A DNA stretch of 44,996 bases, from sequence record PZ789432.1; one strand, 5' to 3'. The notes beneath the pieces were generated by a model that ran no database searches, had not been told where the DNA came from, and saw nothing but the letters and a program-made list of their open reading frames with translations. The translations under genes were made by a program, and so were the position numbers. The first letter of the stretch is position 1. Every line of letters begins with the position of its first letter. The DNA comes from a phage. Shown piece by piece: positions 1-44,996 of this stretch.

Positions 1-257
1 GCCCTCGCCGGGTTGCCCCCATATGGGGTAGATCGGCGGTTGACCTAGGAATTGGGCTGGGCTGGTCCGTCTTCGACGGGTGGGCGAGGGCTTGCCGAGG
101 TCTGCTCTTAGTGGCTGCACAAGGAGAACGCCTAGGAAGCGCTAGGGCACGCCTTAGTATTGGACAAGGTGATTGCCTTAGTGAAGCCTCTTAGTGCATT
201 CCTTAGGTCATTCAGGGCGTTTATGAGGGATTGACAGGGTGGATGCGTGTGTGGGCT
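1..257. repeat. left direct terminal repeat of the linear phage genome
   Basis: 1..257 recurs in the same orientation at 44742..44996. Contains the perfect palindrome CCCCATATGGGG at 17..28. The two copies differ by one substitution and a 2-nt indel at the inner edge (ggatgcgtgtgtgggct vs ggatgggtgtgggct). Confidence 0.85.
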
Positions 258-595: not shown

Positions 596-611
596 GTCTA
601 ACATGTGAGAC
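596..611. repeat. near-copy (1 mismatch) of the 16-bp palindrome GTCTCACATGTGAGAC
   Basis: gtctaacatgtgagac; differs from the perfect copies at one position. Confidence 0.5.
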
Positions 612-674: not shown

Positions 675-817
675 TCATCACGTAGGCAGCACTGAGGTGC
701 TTAGTAGCCAGCTAGTAAGGCATACGAAGAGACTAGCGCTTACATTGCTCTTTAACAATTTGCTTAGTGTAACCTATGTATGCCGTGGTTAATTACTTAT
801 TGAATGAGGGATTAACT

Positions 818-1968: not shown

Positions 1969-2082
1969 ATGGAAAAGCTATACAACTTCATCTTTTCAGA
2001 CGGTGTAACCCTGAAGTGTTCCCTGCGTTTCGCACAAATTCGTGAGGAAGTACTAGGCACTACATACAAACTATTTAGCTGA
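1969..2082 (+). CDS. hypothetical small protein (37 aa)
   Basis: ATG 1969 with GAGG 8 nt upstream; overlaps a promoter-like sequence; weak. Confidence 0.25.
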   Translation: MEKLYNFIFSDGVTLKCSLRFAQIREEVLGTTYKLFS

Positions 2083-2098
2083 CACTATAAGAGAAGGC
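2074..2098 (+). promoter_or_regulatory. phage RNAP promoter-like sequence (variant: atttagctgacactataagagaag)
   Basis: Matches the SP6-type core GACACTATA but has A in place of the +1 G; activity uncertain. Confidence 0.35.
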
Positions 2099-2158: not shown

Positions 2159-2386
2159 ATGGATTTAGATAGCATCATTATGGCATTTGCTCTTATTGGC
2201 TTAAGCTGGTGCTCCTATAACCTTTACCGTGAGTTCTTATTTGATAAAGCTAAACGCAAACTAAGAAAAGAAGGCGGCAATTACCTTTGTGTAAGAGGTG
2301 GGCTTGTAGAATACATTGCACCTAACGGCACGGAATGCGCCATTAGCAAAGATGCATTTATAGAAACGTGGCATTACATCAAGTAA
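2159..2386 (+). CDS. hypothetical early membrane protein (75 aa, N-terminal TM helix)
   Basis: ORF track; SD AGGAG upstream; hydrophobic N-terminus IIMAFALIGLSW. Confidence 0.6.
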   Translation: MDLDSIIMAFALIGLSWCSYNLYREFLFDKAKRKLRKEGGNYLCVRGGLVEYIAPNGTECAISKDAFIETWHYIK

Positions 2387-2449
2387 CTAGCCTATAGCCT
2401 ACCTGAGTGGGCTATGTGATATTTACTTACACTATATAAGGTGACTATT

Positions 2450-3373
2450 ATGACTACTGAAAACATCCTCCTGTCTGTCCGTGAAGCTGCAACCGCTGAG
2501 ATTAAGCAGCATTTGGATAATATCGGCACTTCTTACATCAAAGTTGGCGCTTGTCTGAATGAATTACGCGGTGATTTCGAAGGTCAAAAAGACTTTTTAG
2601 CTTATGTCGAATCAGAGTTCGGCATCAAGAAAGCACAATGCTACAAGCTGATGAGTGTAGCCCGTGTCTTTGAAGGAGACGAACGCTTTAAAGGTGTGGC
2701 TATGCGTGTAATGCTGGCGCTTGTTCCTTTCGCTGATGAAAATATGATCATGGAGAAGGCCGCAGAACTCGCCGCAGAGGGCAAGCTGGACACTAACGCC
2801 GTAAACGCCCTGATTGATCCTAAGAAAGAGACAAAGGCCGAGACGGTACAACCTAAGGTTGAGTCGGTAAAACCGCAGGAGAACGCGACTGAGGCCGCAG
2901 AAACTATGCAAGGACATGCAACCTTTGAGGATTTCATATTAGAGAAGGCGAAAGAGGAGCTACAAAGTGTGCCGCCAGCAAGTGAGTCGGATGACGACAA
3001 ATCAGCACCGTGGGAAGAGGAAAGCAAGCCGGAAGCGCCAAAGACTGCGCCACTGGACAACACGGCTAACACCGAGAGTGCCGCTATTGCTGGCCTTCTG
3101 GCACAAATTAAAGCACTGACTGAGCAATTACAGGCAGCCAATGACCGCATCGCCTCCTTAAGTAGCGCACGCGAAAGCAAGAAGGCAGCCGCGCCTATGC
3201 TGCCGCAATTCAAATCTTCCTGCTTCTATGCTCGCTTAGGTTTAAGCGCTGAGGAGGCAACGAAGAAAACAGCAGTTAACAAGGCACGCCGCGAACTGGT
3301 TAAGCTAGGCTACGGCGAAGGCCATGAAGCATGGCCCTTAATCTCTGAGGCAGTAGAAGAATTAACTAAGTAA
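2450..3373 (+). CDS. hypothetical early protein (307 aa), Ala/Glu-rich with a C-terminal coiled-coil-like region
   Basis: ORF track 2441..3373 starts at GTG; ATG at 2450 preceded by AAGGTG. Sits where T7 has gp0.7, but I see no kinase motifs. Confidence 0.7.
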   Translation: MTTENILLSVREAATAEIKQHLDNIGTSYIKVGACLNELRGDFEGQKDFLAYVESEFGIKKAQCYKLMSVARVFEGDERFKGVAMRVMLALVPFADENMIMEKAAELAAEGKLDTNAVNALIDPKKETKAETVQPKVESVKPQENATEAAETMQGHATFEDFILEKAKEELQSVPPASESDDDKSAPWEEESKPEAPKTAPLDNTANTESAAIAGLLAQIKALTEQLQAANDRIASLSSARESKKAAAPMLPQFKSSCFYARLGLSAEEATKKTAVNKARRELVKLGYGEGHEAWPLISEAVEELTK

Positions 3374-3436: not shown

Positions 3437-6064
3437 ATGCAAGACCTACACGCTATTCAACTTCAACTTGAAGAAGAAATGTTTAACGGCGGTATCCGTC
3501 GCTTTGAAGCGGACCAACAACGCCAGATTGCATCCGGTAATGAATCAGACACGGCATGGAATCGCCGCTTATTGTCCGAGTTAATCGCGCCAATGGCTGA
3601 AGGTATTCAGGCTTATAAGGAAGAGTACGAAGGCAAGCGCGGTCGTGCACCACGTGCATTGGCTTTCATTAACTGCGTAGAAAATGAAGTGGCAGCGTAT
3701 ATCACGATGAAAATCGTAATGGATATGCTTAACACTGATGTAACCTTGCAGGCTATAGCCATGAATGTAGCTGACCGCATTGAGGACCAAGTACGTTTTA
3801 GCAAGCTGGAAGGTCACGCCGCCAAATACTTTGAGAAAGTTAAGAAGTCACTTAAGGCAAGTAAGACTAAATCATATCGCCATGCGCACAACGTAGCGGT
3901 CGTGGCTGAGAAGTCAGTAGCTGACCGTGACGCTGATTTCTCTCGCTGGGAGGCGTGGCCTAGAGATACCTTGCTACAAATTGGTATGACCTTGCTAGAA
4001 ATACTGGAAAATAGTGTATTCTTCAATGGTCAGCCTGTCTTTCTTCGCACCTTGCGCACTAATGGTGGCAAGCATGGCGTTTACTACTTACAGACTAGCG
4101 AACACGTGGGTGAATGGATAACTGCATTTAAAGAGCACGTAGCTCAGCTGAGTCCAGCCTATGCACCTTGCGTTATTCCTCCGCGTCCGTGGGTTTCTCC
4201 GTTTAATGGTGGCTTTCACACCGAGAAGGTGGCAAGTCGCATCCGTCTAGTAAAAGGTAACCGTGAGCACGTCCGTAAGCTGACTAAAAAGCAAATGCCA
4301 GCGGTTTACAAGGCTGTTAACGCCTTACAAGCTACTAAGTGGCAGGTTAACAAGGAAGTATTGCAGGTAGTAGAAGATGTTATTCGTCTAGACCTCGGTT
4401 ATGGTGTACCTTCCTTTAAGCCGCTCATTGACCGCGAGAACAAACCAGCTAACCCTGTTCCTCTTGAGTTCCAGCACCTGCGAGGCCGTGAACTTAAAGA
4501 GATGCTAACGCCGGAACAATGGCAAGCCTTTATAAACTGGAAAGGAGAATGTACCAAGCTGTATACCGCTGAAACTAAGCGCGGAAGCAAGTCGGCGGCG
4601 ACCGTTCGCATGGTTGGACAAGCCCGTAAATACAGCCAGTTTGACGCAATTTATTTTGTGTATGCACTGGACAGCCGTTCACGCGTTTATGCGCAATCTA
4701 GCACGCTCTCGCCGCAATCAAACGACTTAGGCAAGGCATTGCTCCGTTTTACCGAAGGGCAGCGTCTTGATAGCACTGAGGCGCTTAAGTGGTTTTTGGT
4801 GAACGGGGCGAATAACTGGGGTTGGGATAAGAAAACTTTTGACGTGCGCACCGCTAACGTGCTGGATAGCGAATTTCAAGACATGTGCCGCGACATTGCA
4901 GCGGATCCGCTGACCTTCACTCAATGGGTAAATGCTGATTCCCCTTATGGCTTCCTTGCATGGTGCTTTGAATATGCGCGTTATCTGGATGCACTGGACG
5001 AAGGAACGCAAGACCAATTCATGACGCACCTACCCGTCCATCAAGATGGTAGTTGCTCTGGTATCCAGCACTATAGCGCGATGTTACGAGATGAAGTAGG
5101 TGCGAAAGCAGTAAACCTTAAGCCTTCTGACTCCCCTCAAGATATTTATGGCGCGGTTGCGCAGGTTGTTATCCAGAAGAATTACGCCTACATGAATGCA
5201 GACGACGCAGTGACTTTCACATCCGGAAGCGTCACACTTACAGGTGCAGAACTGCGTAGCATGGCTAGTGCGTGGGATATGATAGGAATCACTCGCGGCC
5301 TGACCAAAAAGCCCGTAATGACACTACCTTATGGCAGCACACGTCTAACCTGCCGTGAGTCAGTGATTGATTATATCGTTGATTTAGAAGAAAAAGAGGC
5401 CCAACGAGCTATTGCGGAAGGGCGTACCGCCAATCCTGTACACCCTTTTGATAATGACCGTAAGGACAGCCTGACACCTAGCGCAGCTTATAACTATATG
5501 ACAGCTTTAATCTGGCCTTCTATTTCGGAAGTGGTTAAAGCTCCTATAGTGGCGATGAAAATGATTCGTCAGCTTGCCCGTTTCGCAGCTAAAAGGAATG
5601 AAGGCTTAGAGTATACCTTGCCTACTGGCTTCATCTTGCAACAAAAGATTATGGCTACTGATATGCTCCGCGTATCCACTTGCCTGATGGGAGAAATCAA
5701 GATGAGTCTCCAGATTGAAACGGACGTAGTGGATGAAACGGCTATGATGGGCGCTGCTGCTCCTAACTTTGTGCATGGTCATGATGCCAGTCACCTTATC
5801 TTAACGGTCTGCGACCTTGTTGATAAAGGGATTACATCTATCGCAGTAATTCATGATTCTTTTGGCACTCATGCAGGTCGCACCGCAGACCTACGTGATA
5901 GTCTAAGGGCAGAAATGGTGAAGATGTATCAAGGCCGTAACGCTCTGCAAAGCCTGTTAGATGAGCATGAAGAACGCTGGTTAGTAGACACCGGAATCCA
6001 AGTGCCAGAGCAAGGAGAGTTTGACCTTAACGAAATCTTAGTATCTGACTATTGCTTCGCATAA
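3437..6064 (+). CDS. single-subunit DNA-dependent RNA polymerase (SP6-type)
   Basis: 875 aa; N-terminus [32 protein letters not shown] and C-terminus ...[12 protein letters not shown]...[10 protein letters not shown] closely match SP6 RNAP as I remember it; T7-family motifs present ([39 protein letters not shown]). Confidence 0.97.
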
Positions 6065-6137: not shown

Positions 6138-6153
6138 TGTCTCACACGTGAGA
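6138..6153. repeat. 16-bp palindrome GTCTCACACGTGAGAC
   Basis: 7-bp inverted arms GTCTCAC/GTGAGAC; lies just upstream of a phage promoter. Confidence 0.8.
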
Positions 6154-6156
6154 CTT

Positions 6157-6179
6157 ATTTACCGGACACTATAGGATAA
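6157..6179 (+). promoter_or_regulatory. phage RNAP promoter (atttaccggacactatagg)
   Basis: Matches the genome-wide consensus ATTTACYGGACACTATAG; predicted +1 G at 6174. Confidence 0.7.
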
Positions 6180-6320: not shown

Positions 6321-6336
6321 GTCTCACATGTGAGAC
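6321..6336. repeat. 16-bp perfect palindrome GTCTCACATGTGAGAC
   Basis: Same family as 6138..6153; just upstream of a second phage promoter. Confidence 0.8.
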
Positions 6337-6341
6337 TTCGT

Positions 6342-6364
6342 ATTTACCGGACAATATAGATAAG
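6342..6364 (+). promoter_or_regulatory. phage RNAP promoter variant (atttaccggacaatatagataag)
   Basis: One core mismatch (C to A); second of two tandem promoters upstream of the gene 1.1-like ORF, as phi1.1A/phi1.1B in T7. Confidence 0.55.
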
Positions 6365-6740: not shown

Positions 6741-8728
6741 TGGCTATTATTAATAACATCCCGTGCCCTGCCTGTCAAAAGAATGGACATGATATTACTG
6801 GCAACCATCTTATGATATTTGAGGATGGCGCTGGTTACTGTAACCGTGGTCACTTCCATGATAATGGTAAGCCTTATTACCATAAGCCAGAGGGTGGTAT
6901 CGAGATAACCGAATTGCCTATTACTGGCAATATCAAATATACACCTTCTCAATTCAAAGAAATGGAGAAGGAAGGGAAGATAAGCGACCCTAAGCTACGC
7001 GCCATCGCACTTGGTGGTATGCGTATGAAAGATCGTTGGGAGGTCATGAATGAGCAAGAAAGGGCAGACCAAGAAGCAGAGTGGAAGCTTGATGTTGAAT
7101 GGTTCCTCACGCTTAAGCGTAAGAACCTTGTATCCCGTCACATTCGAGGTGACATCGCAGCAATGTACGATGTGCGCGTTGGACACGATGAAGAGGGAAG
7201 AGTCAACCGTCACTATTATCCACGATATGAAAAGGGTGTGCTTGTTGGAGCAAAATGCCGGACGTTGCCGAAGGATTTTAAGTTCGGACACCTAGGTAAA
7301 CTCTTTGGTATGCAAGACCTTTTCGGTATGAACACTTTGTCTCACGTGTTAGACAAGGGGAGACGAAAGGATTGCTTGCTTATTGTAGGCGGTGAACTTG
7401 ATGCACTAGCAGCGCAGCAGATGCTCCTTGATTCTGCCAAGGGTACTAAGTGGGAAGGCCAGCCATACCATGTATGGTCTGTCAACAAAGGCGAGTCTTG
7501 TCTTGAAGAGATAGTGCAAAACCGTGAGCATATCGCCCAATTCAAGAAGATTATATGGGGTTTTGATGGAGATGAGGTAGGGCAGAAGCAGAATCAGCAA
7601 GCGGCTCGCCTGTTTCCTGGCAAATCCTATATCCTTGAATACCCCTCTGGTTGCAAAGATGCTAACAAGGCATTGATGGCTGGCAAGGCTAAAGAGTTTG
7701 TAGATGCATGGTTTAATGCCAAGTCATCTGATGAAGTCTTTGGTAGCCAGATTAAATCTATCGCATCTCAAAGGGATAAGCTCAAGGCTGCACGTCCAGA
7801 GCAAGGACTATCATGGCCTTGGCCTAAGCTGAACAAGGTCACGCTAGGTATTCGTAAGAACCAACTTATCATTGTAGGCGCAGGCTCTGGTGTAGGTAAG
7901 ACTGAGTTCCTTCGTGAAGTAGTTAAGCACCTCATTGAAGAACACGGTGAATCTGTAGGCATCATTTCTACAGAAGACCCGATGGTCAAGGTGTCCCGTG
8001 CTTTTATCGGCAAGTGGATTGATAAGCGCATTGAGTTACCGCCAACCAACGACCCGAAAGAAGATGGATACCGTGAGGTGTTCGACTACACCGAGGAAGA
8101 GGCTAACGCCGCCATTGATTATGTAGCTGATACAGGTAAGCTGTTTGTAGCTGACCTAGAGGGTGACTATTCGATGGAAAAGGTAGAGCAAACTTGCCTA
8201 GAGTTTGAGGCTATGGGCATTTCTAATATCATCATTGATAACTTAACGGGGATTAAATTAGATGAGCGTGCTTTTGGTGGGAAGGTTGGTGCACTTGATG
8301 AATGCGTCAAGCGGATTGGTACTATCAAAGACCGACACCCGGTTACTATATTCCTTGTATCACACCTTACACGTCCTCCGGCAAACCGTACCCAACACGA
8401 AGAAGGTGGCGAGGTTATCCTTTCTGACTTCCGAGGCTCAGGCGCTATCGGATTCTGGGCATCTTACGCCTTGGGGATTGAGCGTAATACAAGAGCTGAA
8501 ACGCTTGACGAAAGGACTACCACGTACATCTCATGTGTCAAAGACCGCGACCAAGGAATATTTTCCGGTACTCGTATAATGCTTAAAGGTGATATTGCTA
8601 CTGGTCGATTACGTGAACCAGAGCAAAGATCTCGACCGTTTGATACTGGTGCTCCAAAAGAACAAACTGTACCAGAAGAAGTAGTGGATAAAGGAGGATT
8701 TATTGCTGACGAAGTTGAAGAGTTTTGA
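6740..8728 (+). CDS. DNA primase/helicase (T7 gp4-like)
   Basis: 662 aa; N-terminal zinc ribbon CPACQ...CNRGH; Walker A VGAGSGVGKTEF; acidic C-terminus ending EEF. Confidence 0.93.
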   Translation: MAIINNIPCPACQKNGHDITGNHLMIFEDGAGYCNRGHFHDNGKPYYHKPEGGIEITELPITGNIKYTPSQFKEMEKEGKISDPKLRAIALGGMRMKDRWEVMNEQERADQEAEWKLDVEWFLTLKRKNLVSRHIRGDIAAMYDVRVGHDEEGRVNRHYYPRYEKGVLVGAKCRTLPKDFKFGHLGKLFGMQDLFGMNTLSHVLDKGRRKDCLLIVGGELDALAAQQMLLDSAKGTKWEGQPYHVWSVNKGESCLEEIVQNREHIAQFKKIIWGFDGDEVGQKQNQQAARLFPGKSYILEYPSGCKDANKALMAGKAKEFVDAWFNAKSSDEVFGSQIKSIASQRDKLKAARPEQGLSWPWPKLNKVTLGIRKNQLIIVGAGSGVGKTEFLREVVKHLIEEHGESVGIISTEDPMVKVSRAFIGKWIDKRIELPPTNDPKEDGYREVFDYTEEEANAAIDYVADTGKLFVADLEGDYSMEKVEQTCLEFEAMGISNIIIDNLTGIKLDERAFGGKVGALDECVKRIGTIKDRHPVTIFLVSHLTRPPANRTQHEEGGEVILSDFRGSGAIGFWASYALGIERNTRAETLDERTTTYISCVKDRDQGIFSGTRIMLKGDIATGRLREPEQRSRPFDTGAPKEQTVPEEVVDKGGFIADEVEEF

Positions 8729-9404: not shown

Positions 9405-9420
9405 GTCTCACATGTGAGAC
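9405..9420. repeat. 16-bp perfect palindrome GTCTCACATGTGAGAC in a terminator-like context
   Basis: Flanks extend the pairing (gcttgtctcaca/tgtgagacaggc), followed by tcttatt. Confidence 0.8.
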
Positions 9421-10548: not shown

Positions 10549-10564
10549 GTCTCACACGTGAGAC
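10549..10564. repeat. 16-bp palindrome GTCTCACACGTGAGAC in a terminator-like context
   Basis: Extended stem ggttgtctcac/gtgagacagcc followed by tttcatc. Confidence 0.8.
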
Positions 10565-10703: not shown

Positions 10704-10908
10704 ATTAAGCAAGGTTTGCTCTTGCGGTAAAGGCTATCGCAGTCGTATTGATGGTAAGTGTGGACATTGTAGGTCTAAGAAAGAGGCTGCTTTGTTTTAC
10801 AAATACCACAATGAACTCTCCTATAACTACCCTCATCTAACACCTAATTCTTTATTAGGACTTGGTTATAGGGCTAAATACTTTGGAGCAATCTATGAAA
10901 TCAATTGA
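10690..10908 (+). CDS. hypothetical zinc-ribbon protein (72 aa)
   Basis: ORF track 10663..10908; ATG 10690 preferred (GAGG 6 nt upstream); CSCGKG...CGHC motif. Confidence 0.5.
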   Translation: MKTIKLSKVCSCGKGYRSRIDGKCGHCRSKKEAALFYKYHNELSYNYPHLTPNSLLGLGYRAKYFGAIYEIN

Positions 10909-11380
10909 TTGGAAGAAGGAAGCGGAAGGGCGCATCCTAGTTATGGACGCCGAGGCGAAAGGTCTACTTGATGCTATACGCTATGGTCATCGTGAAGACG
11001 TGCATATCATCTGCTGTATGGACCTGTTGACTACAGAGGAGTTTCTCTTCTTCGACCCGTATGAGATGCGTGACCCTGAAGCAAGAGAACGCCTGAAGGA
11101 ATGGGAAGGTCATCAAGATGGTGACTTGGTTGATGGTGTTAACTTCCTGAAGCATTGTGAAGCTATTGTGTCACAGAACTTCCTAGGGTATGACGGACTT
11201 CTCTTTGAGAAAGCATTCCCTGATATTTGGAAGGGCTTTAACTATACCGAGAAGCGCGGTAAGGGCAGACTCCGTGCTGACCTGTGTCCGGTGCGAGTCA
11301 TGGATACGCTGGTGATGAGTCGCCTGTTAAACCCAGATAAGACGCCTTCCTCCGCAAGCATATGCCAAAGGTATGGGTAA
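10895..11380 (+). CDS. DNA polymerase (Pol I family), fragment 1 of 4: 3'-5' exonuclease domain; frame-disrupted
   Basis: ORF track 10862..11380 (TTG), first ATG 10895; Exo motifs ILVMDAEAKGL and NFLGYDGLLFEKAF; VMDTLVMSRLL parallels T7 gp5 CIDTLVLSRLI. Homology continues in another frame. Confidence 0.85.
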   Translation: MKSIDWKKEAEGRILVMDAEAKGLLDAIRYGHREDVHIICCMDLLTTEEFLFFDPYEMRDPEARERLKEWEGHQDGDLVDGVNFLKHCEAIVSQNFLGYDGLLFEKAFPDIWKGFNYTEKRGKGRLRADLCPVRVMDTLVMSRLLNPDKTPSSASICQRYG

Positions 11381-11786
11381 CGTCGCCCCTCACTCAATTG
11401 AGGCGCACGGCATCCGTATAGGCCGCTATAAACCGGAGAACGAGGACTGGTCTAAACTAACTGACCACATGGTTCACCGTGTACGTGAGGACGTGGCGAT
11501 TGGTCGTGACTTGTTCCTCTGGCTCTTTAACGGGGAATGGATGGAGCATAAACGCCGTGGCGTGAATAAACGCACGGGCCTAGGCATTGAGACAGCCTTC
11601 CACATGGAGTCCATTGTGGCGCTGGAGATGAGCCGTCAGGCCGAGCGGGGGTTCCGTCTGGACATCGACAAGGCTTTGGCCCGATGCGAAGAATTGGACG
11701 CTAAGATTGATGAGACAGTCGCAGCGTTCCGCCCTCACATGCCTATGCGTATCAAGTCTAAACCTTTTAAACCGGAAGAAAAGTAA
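11373..11786 (+). CDS. DNA polymerase, fragment 2 of 4; frame-disrupted
   Basis: HSIEAHGIRIGRYK parallels T7 gp5 HALEAWGYRLGEMK; the frame is open upstream from 11331, so the shift lies near 11335..11372. Confidence 0.8.
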   Translation: MGNVAPHSIEAHGIRIGRYKPENEDWSKLTDHMVHRVREDVAIGRDLFLWLFNGEWMEHKRRGVNKRTGLGIETAFHMESIVALEMSRQAERGFRLDIDKALARCEELDAKIDETVAAFRPHMPMRIKSKPFKPEEK

Positions 11787-12445
11787 TGAAGTATGCCAAC
11801 GCGCAAATGAGTATGGAGCTAGCAACAATATACCTACTGTCCTTGACCCCTCACACTTTCTTCATGCCGAGAGACGAGGAGATCGCAAGACAGTATGGAG
11901 AGCTTGTCACTACTAAGTCTGGTGATTGGTCGGCTAGTGTTAAGAAAGACTTTCCTCACCTTAGAGGAAACCGTAATGACACGCCAAGCATCAAGTGGAT
12001 TGGCGCTTACTCGCCTGTTACTTTCGAAGAGATTCCCTTGGGTAACAGGGATACAGTTAAGCAAGTGCTCTATGATTATGGATGGAAAGGTGTTGAATTT
12101 AACGATACCGAGCAAGCGCATCTCGATGAGTACGGAGTGTTACCCAAACCTTGGAGTGGTAAGATAAATGAAAAGTCCCTCACTTTATGGCAAGAAAGAG
12201 CCGCACGTGAAGGTAAAACAGTACCTGATTGGTGCTTGGGTATCGCTGCATGGTACATACTCGTATCCCGTCGTGGTCAGATACTCAACCGTGGTGACGT
12301 TGAAGCCTTCAACGAGAAGGGGAACGTGGCCCTCGCAGGCTGGTGTACGAAAGTGTCGCGGCCTTGTACCTGTAGCATTCAACAAGGAGCTAGGAATCAA
12401 TGCGCAGCAATACTACGAGAGGTACGGATGTTGGCCTACGTCTGA
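11786..12445 (+). CDS. DNA polymerase, fragment 3 of 4; frame-disrupted
   Basis: Back in the frame of fragment 1; polymerase-like over its N-terminal two thirds. Confidence 0.7.
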   Translation: MKYANAQMSMELATIYLLSLTPHTFFMPRDEEIARQYGELVTTKSGDWSASVKKDFPHLRGNRNDTPSIKWIGAYSPVTFEEIPLGNRDTVKQVLYDYGWKGVEFNDTEQAHLDEYGVLPKPWSGKINEKSLTLWQERAAREGKTVPDWCLGIAAWYILVSRRGQILNRGDVEAFNEKGNVALAGWCTKVSRPCTCSIQQGARNQCAAILREVRMLAYV

Positions 12446-13448
12446 CAAAGATGACGGAGAGTGGCGTGTTCCAGCTGTTGCTATTAGTATTGGCACTTCT
12501 ACGTTCCGTATGCGTCATCGTAACGTGGTTAATATTCCTGCCCGTGGCTTGTATCCTTTACGTGATTTATTCATAGCAGGGAAAGGCAAGCTAATCCTTG
12601 GTTGTGACGGTGCAGGTCTTGAACTGCGTGTCCTGTCTCACTTCATGAATGACCCTGAGTACCAAGAGATTGTACTGCACGGTGATATTCATACGCATAA
12701 CCAGATGAAGGCTGGTCTTCCTAAGCGTGATATGGCGAAGACGTTTATATACGCCTTCCTCTATGGTTCTGGTATAGCCAACCTTGCAGCAGTCTGCGGT
12801 GTTACTGAGGAAGAAATGAAGGAAGTTGTGGCAAGATTCGAGATTGAACTACCGTCTCTTGCACGTCTTCGTGAGAATGTTATCGCACAAGGTAACAAGT
12901 TTGGCTACCTGCAAGCACCTGATGGGCATTGGGGTCGCATCCGCATGTCTGGTGGTGAACTTAAAGAGCACACGATGCTTAACGTATTACTCCAGATGAC
13001 TGGCTCTTTGTGTATGAAATATGCATTAGTCAAGGCATTTGCAGTAATGCGCAAGGAAGGTGTAGCTTTGGATGCTATGGGAAATCCTTGTGGTGTGGCT
13101 AACGTGCATGATGAAATCCAGATGGAAGTTCCTGAAGAGGAGGTCTTGTATCTTAACTACGACCTACCTTTCACCTTAGATGGGTTCGAAACAGAGAAGG
13201 CTGCTGTGAAAGCAGTTTTCGATGCAGAGGAGAAACGTGTTCATGTGGATTCTGAAGGACGTATGTGGTCTGCTGCAAACCTCGTTAGCGTTGATGCTGA
13301 TGCTGGTGTATTGCATTGCCAGCGCCGTTATCACCGTGCAGGTCATATCATTGCCGACGCCATGACTTGGGCAGGGCAGTATCTGAAGATGCGTTGCCCG
13401 ATGGCAGGAGAATATAAGATTGGCGCAAGCTGGAAGGAAACACACTGA
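12168..13448 (+). CDS. DNA polymerase, fragment 4 of 4: palm/fingers; frame-disrupted
   Basis: Motif A GCDGAGLELRVLSHF, TSTFRMRHRNVVNIP (T7 TGRATHAFPNLAQIP), KTFIYAFLYG, VHDEIQ. Reliable homology starts near 12430; the first ~260 nt of this ORF overlap fragment 3. Confidence 0.85.
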   Translation: MKSPSLYGKKEPHVKVKQYLIGAWVSLHGTYSYPVVVRYSTVVTLKPSTRRGTWPSQAGVRKCRGLVPVAFNKELGINAQQYYERYGCWPTSDKDDGEWRVPAVAISIGTSTFRMRHRNVVNIPARGLYPLRDLFIAGKGKLILGCDGAGLELRVLSHFMNDPEYQEIVLHGDIHTHNQMKAGLPKRDMAKTFIYAFLYGSGIANLAAVCGVTEEEMKEVVARFEIELPSLARLRENVIAQGNKFGYLQAPDGHWGRIRMSGGELKEHTMLNVLLQMTGSLCMKYALVKAFAVMRKEGVALDAMGNPCGVANVHDEIQMEVPEEEVLYLNYDLPFTLDGFETEKAAVKAVFDAEEKRVHVDSEGRMWSAANLVSVDADAGVLHCQRRYHRAGHIIADAMTWAGQYLKMRCPMAGEYKIGASWKETH

Positions 13449-13564
13449 TGGATAGGCTTGACATTATTTGCCTATTCTTCACTCTCTTTCTTACACTCCT
13501 TATGCTTGCTTGTTATGGGAGTATGAGACTAGATATACCTGATGAAGAAGAGGGTTACGACTAA
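13448..13564 (+). CDS. hypothetical small membrane protein (38 aa)
   Basis: ATG overlaps the polymerase stop (TGATG); hydrophobic core. Confidence 0.35.
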   Translation: MDRLDIICLFFTLFLTLLMLACYGSMRLDIPDEEEGYD

Positions 13565-14204: not shown

Positions 14205-14501
14205 ATGGAAGAAGTGATTCAAGCTAAACATGTAGGTATCATCTTTCGTGATCTAGAGCAGCGTAAAGTTGCAGGTCACACTCGTCTGGCTAAAGAATAC
14301 GATACAGCAATCACTACTGTGGAACAAGCAGATGCCTATCGTGGTCCAGAGTTTACTCAAGGTGAAACTTGTCATCAATTGAGCCTTTCACTTTGTGACA
14401 CTATGGCTAGTGTAAATGTACAAGAGGTTGAAGATGGTGAATGTGTTAGTTATGTCTACCCTCTCGACACTATTGCACGTATTAAGGTAGTTCATAAGTA
14501 A
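14205..14501 (+). CDS. hypothetical protein (98 aa)
   Basis: ORF track 14202..14501; second ATG (14205) has better spacing to AAGGGG. Confidence 0.65.
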   Translation: MEEVIQAKHVGIIFRDLEQRKVAGHTRLAKEYDTAITTVEQADAYRGPEFTQGETCHQLSLSLCDTMASVNVQEVEDGECVSYVYPLDTIARIKVVHK

Positions 14502-14578: not shown

Positions 14579-15385
14579 ATGGCACGTGGTGATTTTGATT
14601 TTGGTGCTCAGGTTACTAAAGCTGAAGGTAAAGTATTTAAGAACCCTGAAGTTGGTGATCATGAAGCAGTAATCTCTGGCATCATTCATGTTGGTTCCTT
14701 CCAAGATATCTTTAAGAAAGGTAATACCACTGAAGTTAAGAAGCCAGCAAACTTTGTTCTTGTTAAGATTATCCTGATGGGTGACGACGATAAGAATGAA
14801 GATGATTCTCGCATGGAACAATGGATGGCTGTGCCTCTGAAGTCTGGTGATAAGGCAACACTGACTAAGTTCCTGAATGCAGTTGACCCTAAAGAGTTGC
14901 TGGGTGGCTTCGATGATTTTATCGGTGAATGCCTGACTGCAACTATGGTTGGCTCTGGCGACAAGAATGATGATGGTACTTTCAAGTATGTTAACTGGAA
15001 AGGCTTTGGCGGTATGCCTGATAAGTTGAAGAAGCTTGTACTGGCTCAGGTAGAAGAGGAAGGTCTGTCTATGACAGGTCATATCACCTTCGACAAGCTG
15101 ACCAAAGAAATCCTTGATGACATCCCAGCTAACTTGGTGCGTCAATACTTCCTTAATGAAACACCTCGTGGTAAGAACCTGTCTGTTGCTGGTTCTCACG
15201 TAGAAGCAATCATTAAAGCTGCTCGTGAAGAAGACCCAGAGTGGAAGAAAGCCAAGAAGAAAGATGACGAGGATGCTACTCCAGCTAATCGTAAATCTCT
15301 GGATACTGGTGAGTCTGTTCCACAGGAAGTACCTGAAGCAGAAGATACTCCTGCACCGGAGATGGATGAGGACGCGGAATATTAA
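14579..15385 (+). CDS. hypothetical protein with acidic C-terminal tail (268 aa); possible ssDNA-binding or replisome accessory protein
   Basis: ORF track; SD AGGAG; C-terminal 40 aa very acidic, ending DEDAEY. Confidence 0.7.
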   Translation: MARGDFDFGAQVTKAEGKVFKNPEVGDHEAVISGIIHVGSFQDIFKKGNTTEVKKPANFVLVKIILMGDDDKNEDDSRMEQWMAVPLKSGDKATLTKFLNAVDPKELLGGFDDFIGECLTATMVGSGDKNDDGTFKYVNWKGFGGMPDKLKKLVLAQVEEEGLSMTGHITFDKLTKEILDDIPANLVRQYFLNETPRGKNLSVAGSHVEAIIKAAREEDPEWKKAKKKDDEDATPANRKSLDTGESVPQEVPEAEDTPAPEMDEDAEY

Positions 15386-15614: not shown

Positions 15615-15630
15615 GTCTCACGTGTGAGAC
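15615..15630. repeat. 16-bp palindrome GTCTCACGTGTGAGAC
   Basis: Same family; 15 bp upstream of a phage promoter. Confidence 0.8.
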
Positions 15631-15718: not shown

Positions 15719-16099
15719 ATGTTCAAGATTGAAACTATCGTAAACCGTGTTGTTAAAGGTGCTGCTCTGGTATCCGTTGAGTCTTTCATTATCGTCGATG
15801 AAGCTGATCAACTGGTAGCTGGTACTAAGGCTTACGATACCCGTGAAGAAGCTCAGGCTAAGATTGACAGCATGGGTAACTTCGCTGCTGGTTTGGAGTT
15901 CGCTCGTGCTTGCTTCCCTGAGCAGGCTGACAAAGCTCAGATTGGTAAGGCTAATATCGTAGCTGAATATCTGGATTGGATTGCTGCTGGTAAGCCGGTG
16001 AAAGAAGTTAAGTCTGCTGAAGAAGCTGAATCTCAGGCAGTAGAAGAAGAAGTAGCTGCACCGGTAGATGCTCCGGTAAGCGAAGAGGAAGAGTTTTAA
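15719..16099 (+). CDS. hypothetical acidic protein (126 aa) ending SEEEEF; candidate SSB-like or polymerase-interacting protein
   Basis: ORF track; strong SD AAAGGAG; framed by a consensus promoter and a hairpin terminator. Confidence 0.75.
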   Translation: MFKIETIVNRVVKGAALVSVESFIIVDEADQLVAGTKAYDTREEAQAKIDSMGNFAAGLEFARACFPEQADKAQIGKANIVAEYLDWIAAGKPVKEVKSAEEAESQAVEEEVAAPVDAPVSEEEEF

Positions 16100-32163: not shown

Positions 32164-32179
32164 GTCTCACATGTGAGAC
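32164..32179. repeat. 16-bp perfect palindrome GTCTCACATGTGAGAC in a terminator-like context
   Basis: Extended stem cttgtctcaca/tgtgagacagg followed by tcttt. Confidence 0.8.
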
Positions 32180-44741: not shown

Positions 44742-44996
44742 GCCCTCGCCGGGTTGCCCCCATATGGGGTAGATCGGCGGTTGACCTAGGAATTGGGCTG
44801 GGCTGGTCCGTCTTCGACGGGTGGGCGAGGGCTTGCCGAGGTCTGCTCTTAGTGGCTGCACAAGGAGAACGCCTAGGAAGCGCTAGGGCACGCCTTAGTA
44901 TTGGACAAGGTGATTGCCTTAGTGAAGCCTCTTAGTGCATTCCTTAGGTCATTCAGGGCGTTTATGAGGGATTGACAGGGTGGATGGGTGTGGGCT
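44742..44996. repeat. right direct terminal repeat
   Basis: Same orientation copy of 1..257; preceded by extra ctcgccctcgccctcgcc units that the truncated left copy does not show. Confidence 0.85.

What the first reader, a model, noticed from the sequence alone, without database searches (positions are those of the whole stretch)
2159..3373. Unassigned early proteins where T7 carries its host-takeover kinase
Between ocr and the RNAP gene lie a 75-aa protein with one N-terminal TM helix and a 307-aa Ala/Glu-rich protein with a coiled-coil-like C-terminus. In T7 this position holds gp0.4-0.7 (FtsZ inhibitor, host-shutoff kinase). I see no kinase motifs in the 307-aa protein, so its function is open; position argues for host takeover or anti-defense.
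Basis: inference. Interest (0 to 1): 0.5.

Follow-up and report, generated by a model that had tools for sequence, protein, structure and literature searches.

The report
Phage DNA-binding regulator with J-like domain
The larger "unassigned" early gene of this SP6/K1E-type phage probably encodes a DNA-binding protein that recognises about eight copies of a 16-base palindrome in the phage's own genome and ends in a crippled chaperone-recruiting (J) domain; if confirmed, it would be the first site-specific regulator known in T7-type phages, whereas the small neighbouring gene is a lineage-restricted orphan.

Summary
Both ORFs are real: 75 aa (2159-2386) and 307 aa (2450-3373), lying between ocr and the RNA polymerase gene of a complete Vectrevirus (K1E/SP6-like) genome. 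Neither is a kinase.

**The 307-aa protein is the SP6 gp7 homologue.** It is conserved full-length just upstream of the RNA polymerase gene in 214 phage records from three Autographiviridae lineages, and is everywhere annotated as hypothetical. It has four parts:
- a helical N-domain (remote DUF3102 similarity; best fold matches are KorB/ParB/SopB DNA-binding domains);
- a disordered acidic linker;
- a coiled coil;
- a C-terminal J-domain homologue that lacks the HPD motif.

**Every gp7-carrying genome has 4-11 copies of one 16-17-bp palindrome.** Here it is GTCTCAC-RY-GTGAGAC (8 copies, 0.04 expected). The sites sit at syntenic positions, three of them 2-15 bp upstream of phage promoters. T7 and phiKMV have none.

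**The half-site changes in concert between phages and tracks the predicted recognition helix.** Of 6,644 core-proteome alignment columns, only gp7 K66 follows the half-site type.

Best reading: a KorB-like regulator acting on the phage's own genome. This is inferred, not demonstrated. The 75-aa protein is a Vectrevirus-only orphan in a hypervariable slot.

The parts
2159..2386 (+). 75-aa orphan protein (K1E gp5 homologue). Hydrophobic N-terminal segment aa 5-23 (nt 2171-2227), then a basic cluster KAKRKLRK.
   Evidence: ORF and RBS. phrog_21597, unknown function. Found only in 32 Vectrevirus records and 10 protein clusters, all at least 80% identical. Hydropathy maximum 1.42.
2450..3373 (+). 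307-aa SP6 gp7-family protein (phrog_4571).
   Evidence: 64% identical to SP6 gp7. Homologues in 214 phage records, 212 of them covering at least 80% of the length.
2471..2824 (+). N-terminal six-helix domain (aa 8-125). Remote DUF3102 similarity and a KorB/ParB-type DNA-binding fold.
2585..2671 (+). Predicted helix-turn-helix (aa 46-74): helix 46-57, turn G58-I59-K60, recognition helix 61-74 (KAQCYKLMSVARVF).
   Evidence: Secondary structure. K61, A62, Y65 and L67 are at least 80% conserved in 107 representatives. The HTH assignment is inferred from this pattern and the fold matches.
2645..2647 (+). Codon of K66, the candidate specificity-determining residue.
   Evidence: Only column of 6,644 in 21 core protein families that is invariant in the five GTCTCAC genomes and different in all six others. 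Consistent over 52 genomes and loci.
2825..3070 (+). Disordered acidic Pro/Glu-rich linker (aa 126-207), hypervariable in length and sequence.
   Evidence: pLDDT 48-68. pI 4.4. Low alignment occupancy.
3071..3178 (+). Long helix, probable dimerising coiled coil (aa 208-243).
   Evidence: Single helix, pLDDT 81-94. Heptad register with 9 of 12 hydrophobic a/d positions.
3191..3217 (+). Invariant APMLPQFKS motif (aa 248-256) immediately before the J-like domain.
   Evidence: P249, L251, P252, Q253 and F254 invariant in 11 diverse homologues. Present in nearly all 107 representatives.
3218..3370 (+). J-domain homologue without HPD (aa 257-307). The loop reads GYGEGH.
596..611 (.). Palindrome site 1 (GTCTAACATGTGAGAC, one mismatch), 34 bp upstream of the -35 hexamer of the first sigma-70-like early promoter (646-674).
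   Evidence: A comparable imperfect left-end site occurs in SP6 (493), Erwinia (795) and Klebsiella (8468). Perfect left-end sites occur in Proteus (562), VEN (571) and Achelous (444). Shewanella (282) has one mismatch.
6139..6154 (.). Palindrome site 2, 2 bp upstream of phage promoter 6157-6178.
   Evidence: Weak RNA hairpin.
6321..6336 (.). Palindrome site 3, 5 bp upstream of phage promoter 6342-6363.
7339..7354 (.). Palindrome site 4 (one mismatch), inside the primase/helicase gene.
9405..9420 (.). Palindrome site 5, at the tip of a 13-bp stem followed by a U-rich tail.
   Evidence: RNA fold -19.7 kcal/mol, z -6.0.
10549..10564 (.). Palindrome site 6, at the tip of a 13-bp stem.
   Evidence: RNA fold -17.9 kcal/mol, z -5.6.
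15615..15630 (.). Palindrome site 7, 15 bp upstream of phage promoter 15646-15667.
   Evidence: SP6 has the same 15-bp gap (14255 to 14286). Proteus has a 14-bp gap (15021 to 15052).
32164..32179 (.). Palindrome site 8, at the tip of a 13-bp stem, just upstream of the 1107-aa internal virion protein gene.
   Evidence: RNA fold -17.6 kcal/mol, z -4.6.
2073..2094 (+). Weak SP6-type promoter-like sequence (5 mismatches to the window consensus) upstream of the 75-aa gene.
2393..2416 (+). 10-bp hairpin between the two genes.
   Evidence: Not followed further.

Best explanation
The 307-aa protein (SP6 gp7 family) is a phage-encoded, sequence-specific DNA-binding regulator of the phage's own genome.

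**Proposed mechanism.**
- Two N-terminal KorB/ParB-type helix-turn-helix domains are held together by the coiled coil through long flexible acidic linkers.
- They bind the two half-sites of a 16-17-bp palindrome, GTCTCAC-N2-GTGAGAC in this phage.
- The palindrome occurs about eight times at conserved places: upstream of the first host-type early promoter, directly upstream of the two divergent phage promoters that follow the RNA polymerase gene (the place of T7's primary replication origin), upstream of a third phage promoter near 15.6 kb, and at three intergenic hairpin or terminator-like sites.
- Residue K66 on the recognition helix, together with positions 63 and 65, sets half-site specificity.
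- The C-terminal J-like domain, preceded by the invariant LPQF motif, has lost the HPD catalytic motif. It therefore probably serves as a docking module for a partner such as DnaK, the phage RNA polymerase or a replication protein, rather than as a canonical co-chaperone.

**Likely net role.** Timing or modulation of early and class-II-like transcription and/or origin activity, in the manner of KorB on plasmid RK2.

**Shown here:** the gene and its conservation, the domain architecture, J-domain homology without HPD, the palindrome family with its positions, and the co-variation.

**Inferred:** DNA binding itself, dimerisation, which helix reads the bases, and the regulatory outcome.

The 75-aa protein is a separate, Vectrevirus-restricted small protein, probably membrane-anchored, of unknown role in a hypervariable slot.
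For: **Core-gene behaviour.** Full-length homologues lie just upstream of the RNA polymerase gene in Molineuxvirinae, Colwellvirinae, Gajwadongvirus and metagenomic relatives.

**Architecture.** AF2 mean pLDDT is 81.5, with both domains above 93. The N-domain alone gives 92.9.

**Palindrome family.**
- 8 sites in the window against 0.04 expected.
- Families of 3-9 perfect copies in 8 of the 10 other whole gp7-carrying genomes examined. SP6 has 2 perfect copies (9 at one mismatch or fewer) and Edwardsiella only imperfect ones.
- Shuffled genomes, T7 and phiKMV give at most 1-3.

**Concerted change that does not follow the host.** The E. coli phages in the window and ECBP5 differ in half-site. 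Phages of E. coli, Erwinia, Vibrio, Pseudomonas and Shewanella share GTCTCA.

**One-to-one mapping of helix motif to half-site in 52 genomes and loci, with no exception**:
- QxYK with GTCTCAC
- QxYN or QxYH with GTCCAAC/GTCTAAC
- QASK with GTTTCAC
- WAYR with GT[C/A]TAGT
- YVYR with GTCTACA
- Marinomonas KSSVSE with GTTCGAG

**Proteome-wide scan.** Only 1 of 6,644 columns fits the half-site partition, and it is gp7 K66.

**Promoter adjacency conserved in three genera**.

**Promoter-proximal sites are poor RNA hairpins** (z above -1.4), which fits a role at the DNA level.
Against: - No experiment supports any of this.
- The N-domain is net acidic, pI about 5.
- Neither the window protein nor any relative reaches the Pfam threshold for DUF3102, and DUF3102 itself has no known function.
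- Co-variation is confounded by phylogeny, because each half-site type is largely a clade. I estimate about seven transitions. I noticed the K66 pattern before making the formal scan.
- Three window sites are stable 13-bp RNA hairpins with U-rich tails. One Proteus site is annotated as a terminator. In SP6-type genomes the common T/G asymmetry is wobble-compatible on the transcribed strand. Part of the family therefore clearly has an RNA-level life.
- Other phage proteins of unknown function (14579-15385, 15719-16099, and small ORFs) cannot be excluded as the binding factor.
- In KorB the key base contacts come from outside the HTH (established knowledge), so assigning the reading helix is uncertain.
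Confidence: 0.5

Rival explanations
1. The palindromes are purely RNA elements: phage-RNAP terminators, RNase III or stability hairpins. They would be unrelated to gp7. On this view gp7 is a host-takeover adaptor whose J-like domain engages DnaK/Hsp70, as the RB43 Rki protein does, while the N-domain binds a host protein.
For: - Three of the eight window sites form 13-bp stems (-17.6 to -19.7 kcal/mol, z -4.6 to -6) with U-rich tails.
- One Proteus site lies within an annotated rho-independent terminator.
- The T-G asymmetry in SP6-type sites is wobble-compatible on the + strand.
- J-domain homology is solid.
- A phage J-domain protein acting on DnaK and sigma-32 is documented (PMC3486835).
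- The N-domain is acidic.
Against: - A structure-only RNA element would drift independently at each site. Instead all sites in a genome share one exact half-site, which changes in concert between genomes and stays identical across phages with no nucleotide similarity. That requires a sequence-reading trans factor. The factor is phage-encoded, because half-sites do not follow the host.
- Five of the eight window sites are poor hairpins. One of them lies upstream of the first early promoter.
- Mismatched sites in the window, Erwinia and Klebsiella-type loci are not wobble-compatible.
- The HPD motif, essential for Hsp70 ATPase stimulation, is absent in 106 of 107 representatives.
- K66 is the only column in the core proteome that tracks the half-site.
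Confidence: 0.2
2. gp7 is an anti-defence protein, for example a decoy or inhibitor of a DNA-sensing immune system. It would be placed early like ocr.
For: - It is in the early region next to ocr.
- It has an acidic, disordered linker.
- In relatives the early region carries other anti-restriction genes, such as S-AdoMet lyase and a methyltransferase.
Against: - Anti-defence genes are typically patchy. This gene is universal and syntenic in three lineages, while its neighbours vary.
- No homologue was found in plasmids.
- The hypothesis does not explain the palindrome co-variation.
Confidence: 0.1
3. The 307-aa protein is the functional analogue of T7 gp0.7, either as a kinase or as a host-transcription shut-off protein.
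For: It occupies the same position, immediately upstream of the RNA polymerase gene.
Against: - No kinase family hit in Pfam or NCBIfam.
- No similarity to gp0.7 (E=82).
- The fold is an all-helical HTH-like domain plus a J-like domain.
Confidence: 0.03

Closest known systems
KorB of IncP plasmid RK2 (ParB-family global repressor; PDB 1r71, 8qa8)
   Same: - Similar overall logic: an HTH DNA-binding domain, a long flexible acidic linker and a C-terminal dimerisation element.
- A set of about 8-12 identical palindromic operators scattered through its own replicon, several next to promoters. The KorB operator set is cited from established knowledge.
   Different: - No detectable sequence similarity.
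- No ParB/Srx CTP-binding N-terminal domain.
- Dimerisation by a coiled coil rather than an SH3-like domain.
- An extra J-like domain.
- The host replicon is a lytic phage, and the neighbouring promoters are read by a single-subunit RNA polymerase.
J-domain proteins (DnaJ/Hsp40 family, PF00226), including phage RB43 Rki (PMC3486835)
   Same: The C-terminal 55 residues are homologous to J-domains, by family profile (E=4.8e-6 to DNAJC27; E. coli DnaJ 0.003) and by fold. Rki shows that a phage can encode a J-domain protein.
Polyomavirus large T antigen
   Different: Domain order is reversed. T antigen has an HPD motif and a helicase domain, and it is eukaryotic. There is no homology outside the J fold. 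This is an analogy only.
DUF3102 (PF11300)
   Same: 37 of 107 family representatives give sub-threshold hits over the helix-turn-helix region, at profile positions 20-74.
   Different: The window protein itself gives no hit at E of 1 or below. The best relative scores 23.7 bits against a cut-off of 24.4. The family has no known function, and the three papers in the library that mention it do so only in passing.
T7 gp0.7 / gp0.4-0.6
   Same: Same genomic position between ocr and the RNA polymerase gene.
   Different: No homology and no kinase domain.
Host XRE regulator SrpA acting on Pseudomonas phage K5 (PMC5945682)
   Same: An HTH protein that binds palindromes at promoters of genes transcribed with a phage-encoded RNA polymerase, and that interacts with that polymerase. 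This is a precedent for site-specific factors assisting phage RNA polymerases.
   Different: It is host-encoded, 84 aa, of the XRE family, and acts on an unrelated phage.

Membership tests
SP6 gp7 family / PHROG 4571 | Full-length profile match. | tested here: met
   phrog_4571 E=4.2e-129 over aa 1-307. 64% identity to SP6 gp7.
J-domain proteins (PF00226) | J-domain fold and sequence homology (helix II - loop - helix III). | tested here: met
   [not shown]
J-domain proteins (PF00226) | HPD tripeptide in the loop between helices II and III. | tested here: not met
   The loop reads GYGEGH. HPD is present in 1 of 107 representatives, and YNPD in one other.
J-domain proteins (PF00226) | Stimulation of DnaK/Hsp70 ATPase. 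| not testable with these tools
   Needs biochemistry.
DUF3102 (PF11300) | Score at or above the Pfam gathering threshold (24.4 bits). | tested here: not met
   No hit for the window protein. Among the relatives whose scores were listed, the best is 23.7 bits. 37 of 107 representatives hit at E of 0.01 or below.
ParB/KorB family | HTH DNA-binding domain fold. | tested here: inconclusive
   [not shown]
ParB/KorB family | N-terminal ParB/Srx CTP-binding domain. | tested here: not met
   The fold matches begin about aa 8-10, so there is no room for such a domain. No Pfam ParBc hit.
ParB/KorB family | Binding to repeated palindromic sites in its own replicon. | tested here: inconclusive
   The sites exist and co-vary with residue 66. 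Binding itself was not tested.
T7 gp0.7 protein kinase | Sequence or domain similarity to the gp0.7 kinase. | tested here: not met
   BLASTP E=82. No kinase family hit in Pfam or NCBIfam.
Small membrane proteins (75-aa ORF) | A hydrophobic segment long enough to span the membrane. | tested here: inconclusive
   For aa 1-19 the Kyte-Doolittle mean is 1.42, which is borderline. The basic cluster after the segment fits the positive-inside rule.

The most novel reading that the evidence does not exclude
SP6/K1E-type phages, and related Colwellvirinae and Gajwadongvirus, carry a regulatory circuit not previously described. A KorB-like dimeric DNA-binding protein reads a genome-wide set of palindromic operators placed against single-subunit RNA-polymerase promoters and the presumptive replication origin. 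Through a degenerate J-domain it would recruit DnaK, the phage RNA polymerase or the replisome. This would be the first site-specific DNA-binding regulator in the T7 supergroup, and a prokaryotic parallel to polyomavirus T antigen. Its operator specificity would be reprogrammable by one or two residues (K66 to N, H or R).
Probability: 0.35. Interest if true: 0.8.

Novelty: new variant of a known kind. Interest (0 to 1): 0.66.

Why it matters
Gene expression in T7-type phages is usually explained without any site-specific DNA-binding regulator. The textbook elements are promoter strength, genome entry, lysozyme and host-RNAP inhibitors.

A conserved operator-and-regulator pair in the SP6 branch would add a new control layer to a model system whose polymerase and promoters are standard laboratory tools.

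It would also:
- assign a function to a gene annotated as hypothetical (or wrongly as "endolysin") in hundreds of therapeutic-candidate phage genomes;
- give a first functional lead for DUF3102;
- offer a compact protein/operator pair with natural specificity variants, orthogonal to SP6-type promoters, for synthetic biology.

The hypothesis is directly testable with gel shifts and one point mutation.

Tried and rejected
- **Single-sequence searches of the 307-aa protein.** Searches against Pfam, NCBIfam and PDB sequences gave only chance-level coiled-coil hits. Signal appeared only after scanning 107 diverse representatives individually or as a profile.
- **Foldseek of the full model against the PDB** was not significant; KorB ranked second at E=3.9.
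- **A profile of the N-domain alone against PDB sequences** found nothing relevant.
- **tblastn against 72,556 plasmids** gave no match, so the protein is not a plasmid KorB/ParB relative.
- **Rfam at gathering thresholds on the whole window** gave no family.
- **Literature.** I found no paper on SP6 gp7 or PHROG 4571, nor any containing the 16-mer palindromes. DUF3102 appears in three unrelated papers. The 2004 SP6 genome paper (Dobbins et al.) was not retrievable from the held library. The companion K1-5/SP6 paper was not looked up. I therefore cannot exclude that either paper mentions the repeats.
- **Kinase or gp0.7 analogy:** rejected.
- **A first relaxed co-variation criterion** (GTCTCAC genomes versus the three GTCCAAC genomes only) gave 10 columns in 9 proteins, so it did not discriminate. 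The stricter 11-genome criterion isolated gp7 K66.
- **My prediction that Edwardsiella would carry GTCTAGT** was only partly met. It has about five imperfect GTATAGT sites.
Full report
**What the window is.** The 44,996-bp window is a complete linear genome of a Vectrevirus (K1E/K1-5-like, SP6 supergroup). It has 251-bp terminal repeats. Its early region is 99.8% identical to Escherichia phage 6948.

**Observation.** The region 2159-3373 holds two + strand ORFs with good ribosome-binding sites. One is a 75-aa ORF (2159-2386). The other is a 307-aa ORF (ATG at 2450, stop at 3373).
- Upstream lie ocr (1598-1966, Pfam E=1e-41) and a 37-aa ORF.
- Downstream lies the single-subunit RNA polymerase gene (3437-6064), followed by a terminator-like hairpin.
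- In T7 the same interval holds genes 0.4-0.7, including the kinase.
The C-terminal end of the larger protein is a folded domain that follows the coiled coil. The transmembrane helix of the small protein is plausible but borderline.

**The 307-aa protein is a conserved core gene, not an accessory gene.**
- It is the homologue of SP6 gp7 (64% identity) and belongs to PHROG 4571, of unknown function.
- tblastn finds it in 214 phage records, 212 of them over at least 80% of its length. The hosts include Escherichia, Klebsiella, Salmonella, Proteus, Erwinia, Pectobacterium, Vibrio, Pseudomonas, Marinomonas, Shewanella and Edwardsiella.
- In every locus inspected it lies directly, or one small ORF, upstream of the RNA polymerase gene. 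The surrounding early genes differ from phage to phage.
- A 507-aa metagenomic relative has the same context, with a SAM lyase upstream and an SP6-type polymerase downstream.
- An exhaustive search of 1.84 billion cluster representatives returns only 130 clusters.
- None was found in plasmids. T7 lacks it.

**Architecture.**
- An alignment of 11 diverse homologues shows a conserved N-terminal block and a hypervariable acidic linker. These are followed by a heptad-bearing helix, an invariant motif A-P-M-L-P-Q-F-K-S, and a conserved C-terminal block.
- AlphaFold2 with 107 representatives gives mean pLDDT 81.5. It predicts a six-helix N-domain (aa 10-122, pLDDT above 95), disorder over aa 126-207, one long helix (aa 208-243), and a small three-helix C-domain (aa 250-307, pLDDT above 93).

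**C-terminal domain.**
- The family profile hits more than 20 solved J-domains, including DNAJC27 at 4.8e-6 and E. coli DnaJ at 0.003.
- 12 representatives give sub-threshold Pfam DnaJ hits at the right place.
- The HPD tripeptide is absent. This clade has an invariant GYGxGH. Other clades read Y-[TN]-x-[DE]-x-N-x-EAF. One representative has YNPD and only 1 of 107 has HPD.
- It is therefore a J-domain homologue that fails the defining catalytic feature of J-domain co-chaperones.

**N-terminal domain.**
- The window protein alone hits nothing. However, 37 of 107 representatives give sub-threshold DUF3102 hits over the segment FLxWxxxxFGIKKAQxYxLMKV.
- Raf1 (6.1) and folliculin (6.0) score similarly.
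- Foldseek and sequence profiles give no support, and the domain is acidic.
- The fold assignment is therefore moderate. The helix-Gly-hydrophobic-helix pattern at aa 46-74 is a canonical HTH signature. That reading is my inference.

**A palindrome family outside the finding's coordinates.**
- A repeat scan of the whole window found 13 SP6-type promoters and eight copies of GTCTCAC-RY-GTGAGAC. The expectation is 0.04, and 0 of 100 shuffles reached 8.
- I then fetched ten further whole genomes that carry gp7, plus T7 and phiKMV. All ten gp7-carrying genomes have such a family. Eight have 3-9 perfect copies, SP6 has 2 perfect and 9 at one mismatch or fewer, and Edwardsiella has only imperfect sites.
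- T7 and phiKMV have none, apart from one palindrome inside T7's terminal repeat.
- Site positions are syntenic across genomes:
  - one upstream of the first host-type promoter (window 596; -35 hexamer at 646);
  - two directly upstream of the two most divergent phage promoters, just after the polymerase gene (gaps of 2 and 5 bp here, 9 and 7 bp in SP6, 5 bp in Proteus);
  - one 14-15 bp upstream of a promoter near 15 kb, in all three genera;
  - further intergenic sites.

**Concerted change and co-variation.**
- Within a genome all sites share one half-site. Between genomes the half-site differs:
  - GTCTCAC in Vectrevirus, Erwinia, Vibrio and Pseudomonas phages;
  - GTCTCAY in the Shewanella phage;
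  - GTCCAAC in Proteus and Klebsiella phages;
  - GTCYAAC in SP6-type phages;
  - GT[C/A]TAGT in ECBP5 and Edwardsiella phages;
  - GTCTACA and GTTTCAC in two metagenomic phages;
  - GTTCGAG in the Marinomonas phage.
- The half-site does not follow the host. Two E. coli phages differ, while phages of five host genera share one.
- Such concerted evolution of dispersed sites calls for a sequence-reading trans factor encoded by the phage.
- The residue after the conserved Tyr65 of the predicted recognition helix is K, N/H or R in step with the half-site. Positions 63 and 65 change in the remaining types.
- I predicted site types for further genomes from the helix:
  - Klebsiella (N, so GTCCAAC) was met.
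  - Achelous and Shewanella (K, so GTCTCA-) were met.
  - Marinomonas (divergent helix, so a different site) was met.
  - Edwardsiella was partly met.
  - T7 (no gp7, so no sites) was met.
- Across 52 genomes and loci, including 42 IMG/VR loci, each carries sites of one type only. The helix motif predicts the type without exception.
- An unbiased scan covered 21 core protein families in 11 genomes. Among 6,644 columns ungapped in all, exactly one is invariant in the five GTCTCAC genomes and different in all six others. That column is gp7 K66.
- Core-protein identities give a ladder-like tree: ((((window, SP6), Proteus), Klebsiella), Erwinia), then the outgroups. K66 and GTCTCAC in Vectrevirus therefore represent either a reversal or an independent retention, not simple clade membership.

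**Limits of that argument.**
- The number of independent transitions is small; I estimate about seven.
- I saw the pattern before formalising the test.
- Small or non-core phage proteins were not scanned.
- Three window sites (9405, 10549, 32164) cap 13-bp stems with U-rich tails and strongly negative folding z-scores. The other five are poor hairpins.
- SP6-type sites show a strand-consistent T/G asymmetry compatible with G-U pairing. Mismatched sites in other genomes are not wobble-compatible.
- So part of the family probably also works as RNA hairpins or terminators.

**Mechanism proposed.** gp7 is a dimeric, KorB-like, site-specific DNA-binding protein made early. It occupies operators next to the early host-type promoter, the first phage promoters and the presumptive origin region. 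It would modulate transcription and/or replication. Its HPD-less J-like domain, with the LPQF motif, would dock an unknown partner. I put this at about 0.5.
- Shown: the genes, their conservation, the domain architecture, J-domain homology without HPD, the site family, and the co-variation.
- Inferred: DNA binding, dimerisation, the identity of the reading helix, and the regulatory outcome.

**Rivals.**
- The sites are RNA-only elements and gp7 is a DnaK-directed takeover factor (0.2).
- gp7 is an anti-defence protein (0.1).
- gp7 is a gp0.7 analogue (0.03).

**The 75-aa protein.** It is K1E gp5, found only in 32 Vectrevirus records and 10 protein clusters, all at least 80% identical.
- Other relatives carry unrelated small hydrophobic proteins in the same slot: 61 aa in KMB14, 41 aa in VEc3, 63 aa in SP6 gp6 and 74 aa in Proteus.
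- This is the pattern of a fast-turnover accessory gene, possibly membrane-targeted. Its function remains open.

**Novelty.**
- No record or paper in the searchable library assigns a function to this family or mentions the palindromes. The 2004 SP6 genome paper was not retrievable, and the companion K1-5/SP6 paper was not looked up.
- Each ingredient is known separately: HTH regulators with operator sets, J-like domains, and phage J-proteins.
- The combination, and its presence in the T7 supergroup, would be new.
- I classify it as a new variant of a known kind, with interest 0.66.

Noticed in passing
window 10862-13448: The DNA polymerase gene is fragmented. SP6 DNAP (849 aa) aligns in five pieces in frames 2/3/1/2/3, with switches near 11340, 11780, 11900 and 12321. 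The nearest relative, phage 6948, has one intact gene and is 7 nt shorter over 10800-13500. Identity there is only 98.0%, against 99.8% in the early region. This is probably indel sequencing errors or a defective genome.
   Followed up: partly
window 1-251 and 44742-44992: A perfect 251-bp direct terminal repeat, so the window is a whole linear phage genome.
   Followed up: no
window 1969-2082: A 37-aa ORF directly after ocr is conserved in SP6 (gene 53), a Klebsiella phage, KMB14 and VEc3. The shared motif is YxFxFSDGxxLKCSLxFAxxREExLGTxY. It is a conserved micro-protein of unknown role.
   Followed up: partly
window 2159-2386 and equivalent slots in L001, L005, L013, L014: The slot between the 37-aa ORF and gp7 holds unrelated small hydrophobic proteins in different relatives. 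This is a hypervariable cassette position for small membrane proteins.
   Followed up: partly
window 2073-2094: A weak SP6-type promoter-like sequence (ATTTAGCTGACACTATAAGAGA, 5 mismatches) lies upstream of the 75-aa gene. The 75-aa, gp7 and polymerase genes might therefore also be read by the phage polymerase.
   Followed up: no
window 747-781, 1292-1326, 1504-1538: Three copies of GCTCTTTAACAAT(T/A)TGG occur in the early region, each upstream of an early ORF. They may be processing or translation signals (family D10).
   Followed up: no
window 9405, 10549, 32164 versus 596, 6139, 6321, 7339, 15615: The palindromes fall into two classes. One class has 13-bp stems with U-rich tails and is terminator-like. 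The other has bare 7-bp arms and lies at promoters, at the left end, and in one case (7339) inside the primase/helicase gene.
   Followed up: yes
window 6157-6178 and 6342-6363; L015 6118 and 6287: The two phage promoters immediately after the polymerase gene are among the most divergent from consensus: 3-4 mismatches here and 4-5 in SP6. They are also the ones with an adjacent palindrome. The position matches T7's phi1.1A/B primary origin.
   Followed up: partly
representatives P0129-P0236; L004 695-1729; L010 2264-3280: Most distant family members carry an extra N-terminal extension of 70-230 aa before the HTH domain, for example in ECBP5 and the Edwardsiella phage. Its nature is unknown.
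   Followed up: no
L065 5600-7100: A metagenomic relative with helix KSWAFK lacks GTC-type sites. Instead it has about five copies of AGCTT-RCAG-AAGCT upstream of gp7, possibly yet another specificity pair.
   Followed up: partly
public records: Misannotations: gp7 homologues are labelled 'endolysin' or 'andolysin' in several phage records, and the ocr gene of vB-Eco-KMB14 is labelled 'protein kinase'.
   Followed up: no
window 2393-2416: A 10-bp hairpin (TATAGCCTACCTGAGTGGGCTATG) lies between the 75-aa gene and gp7.
   Followed up: no
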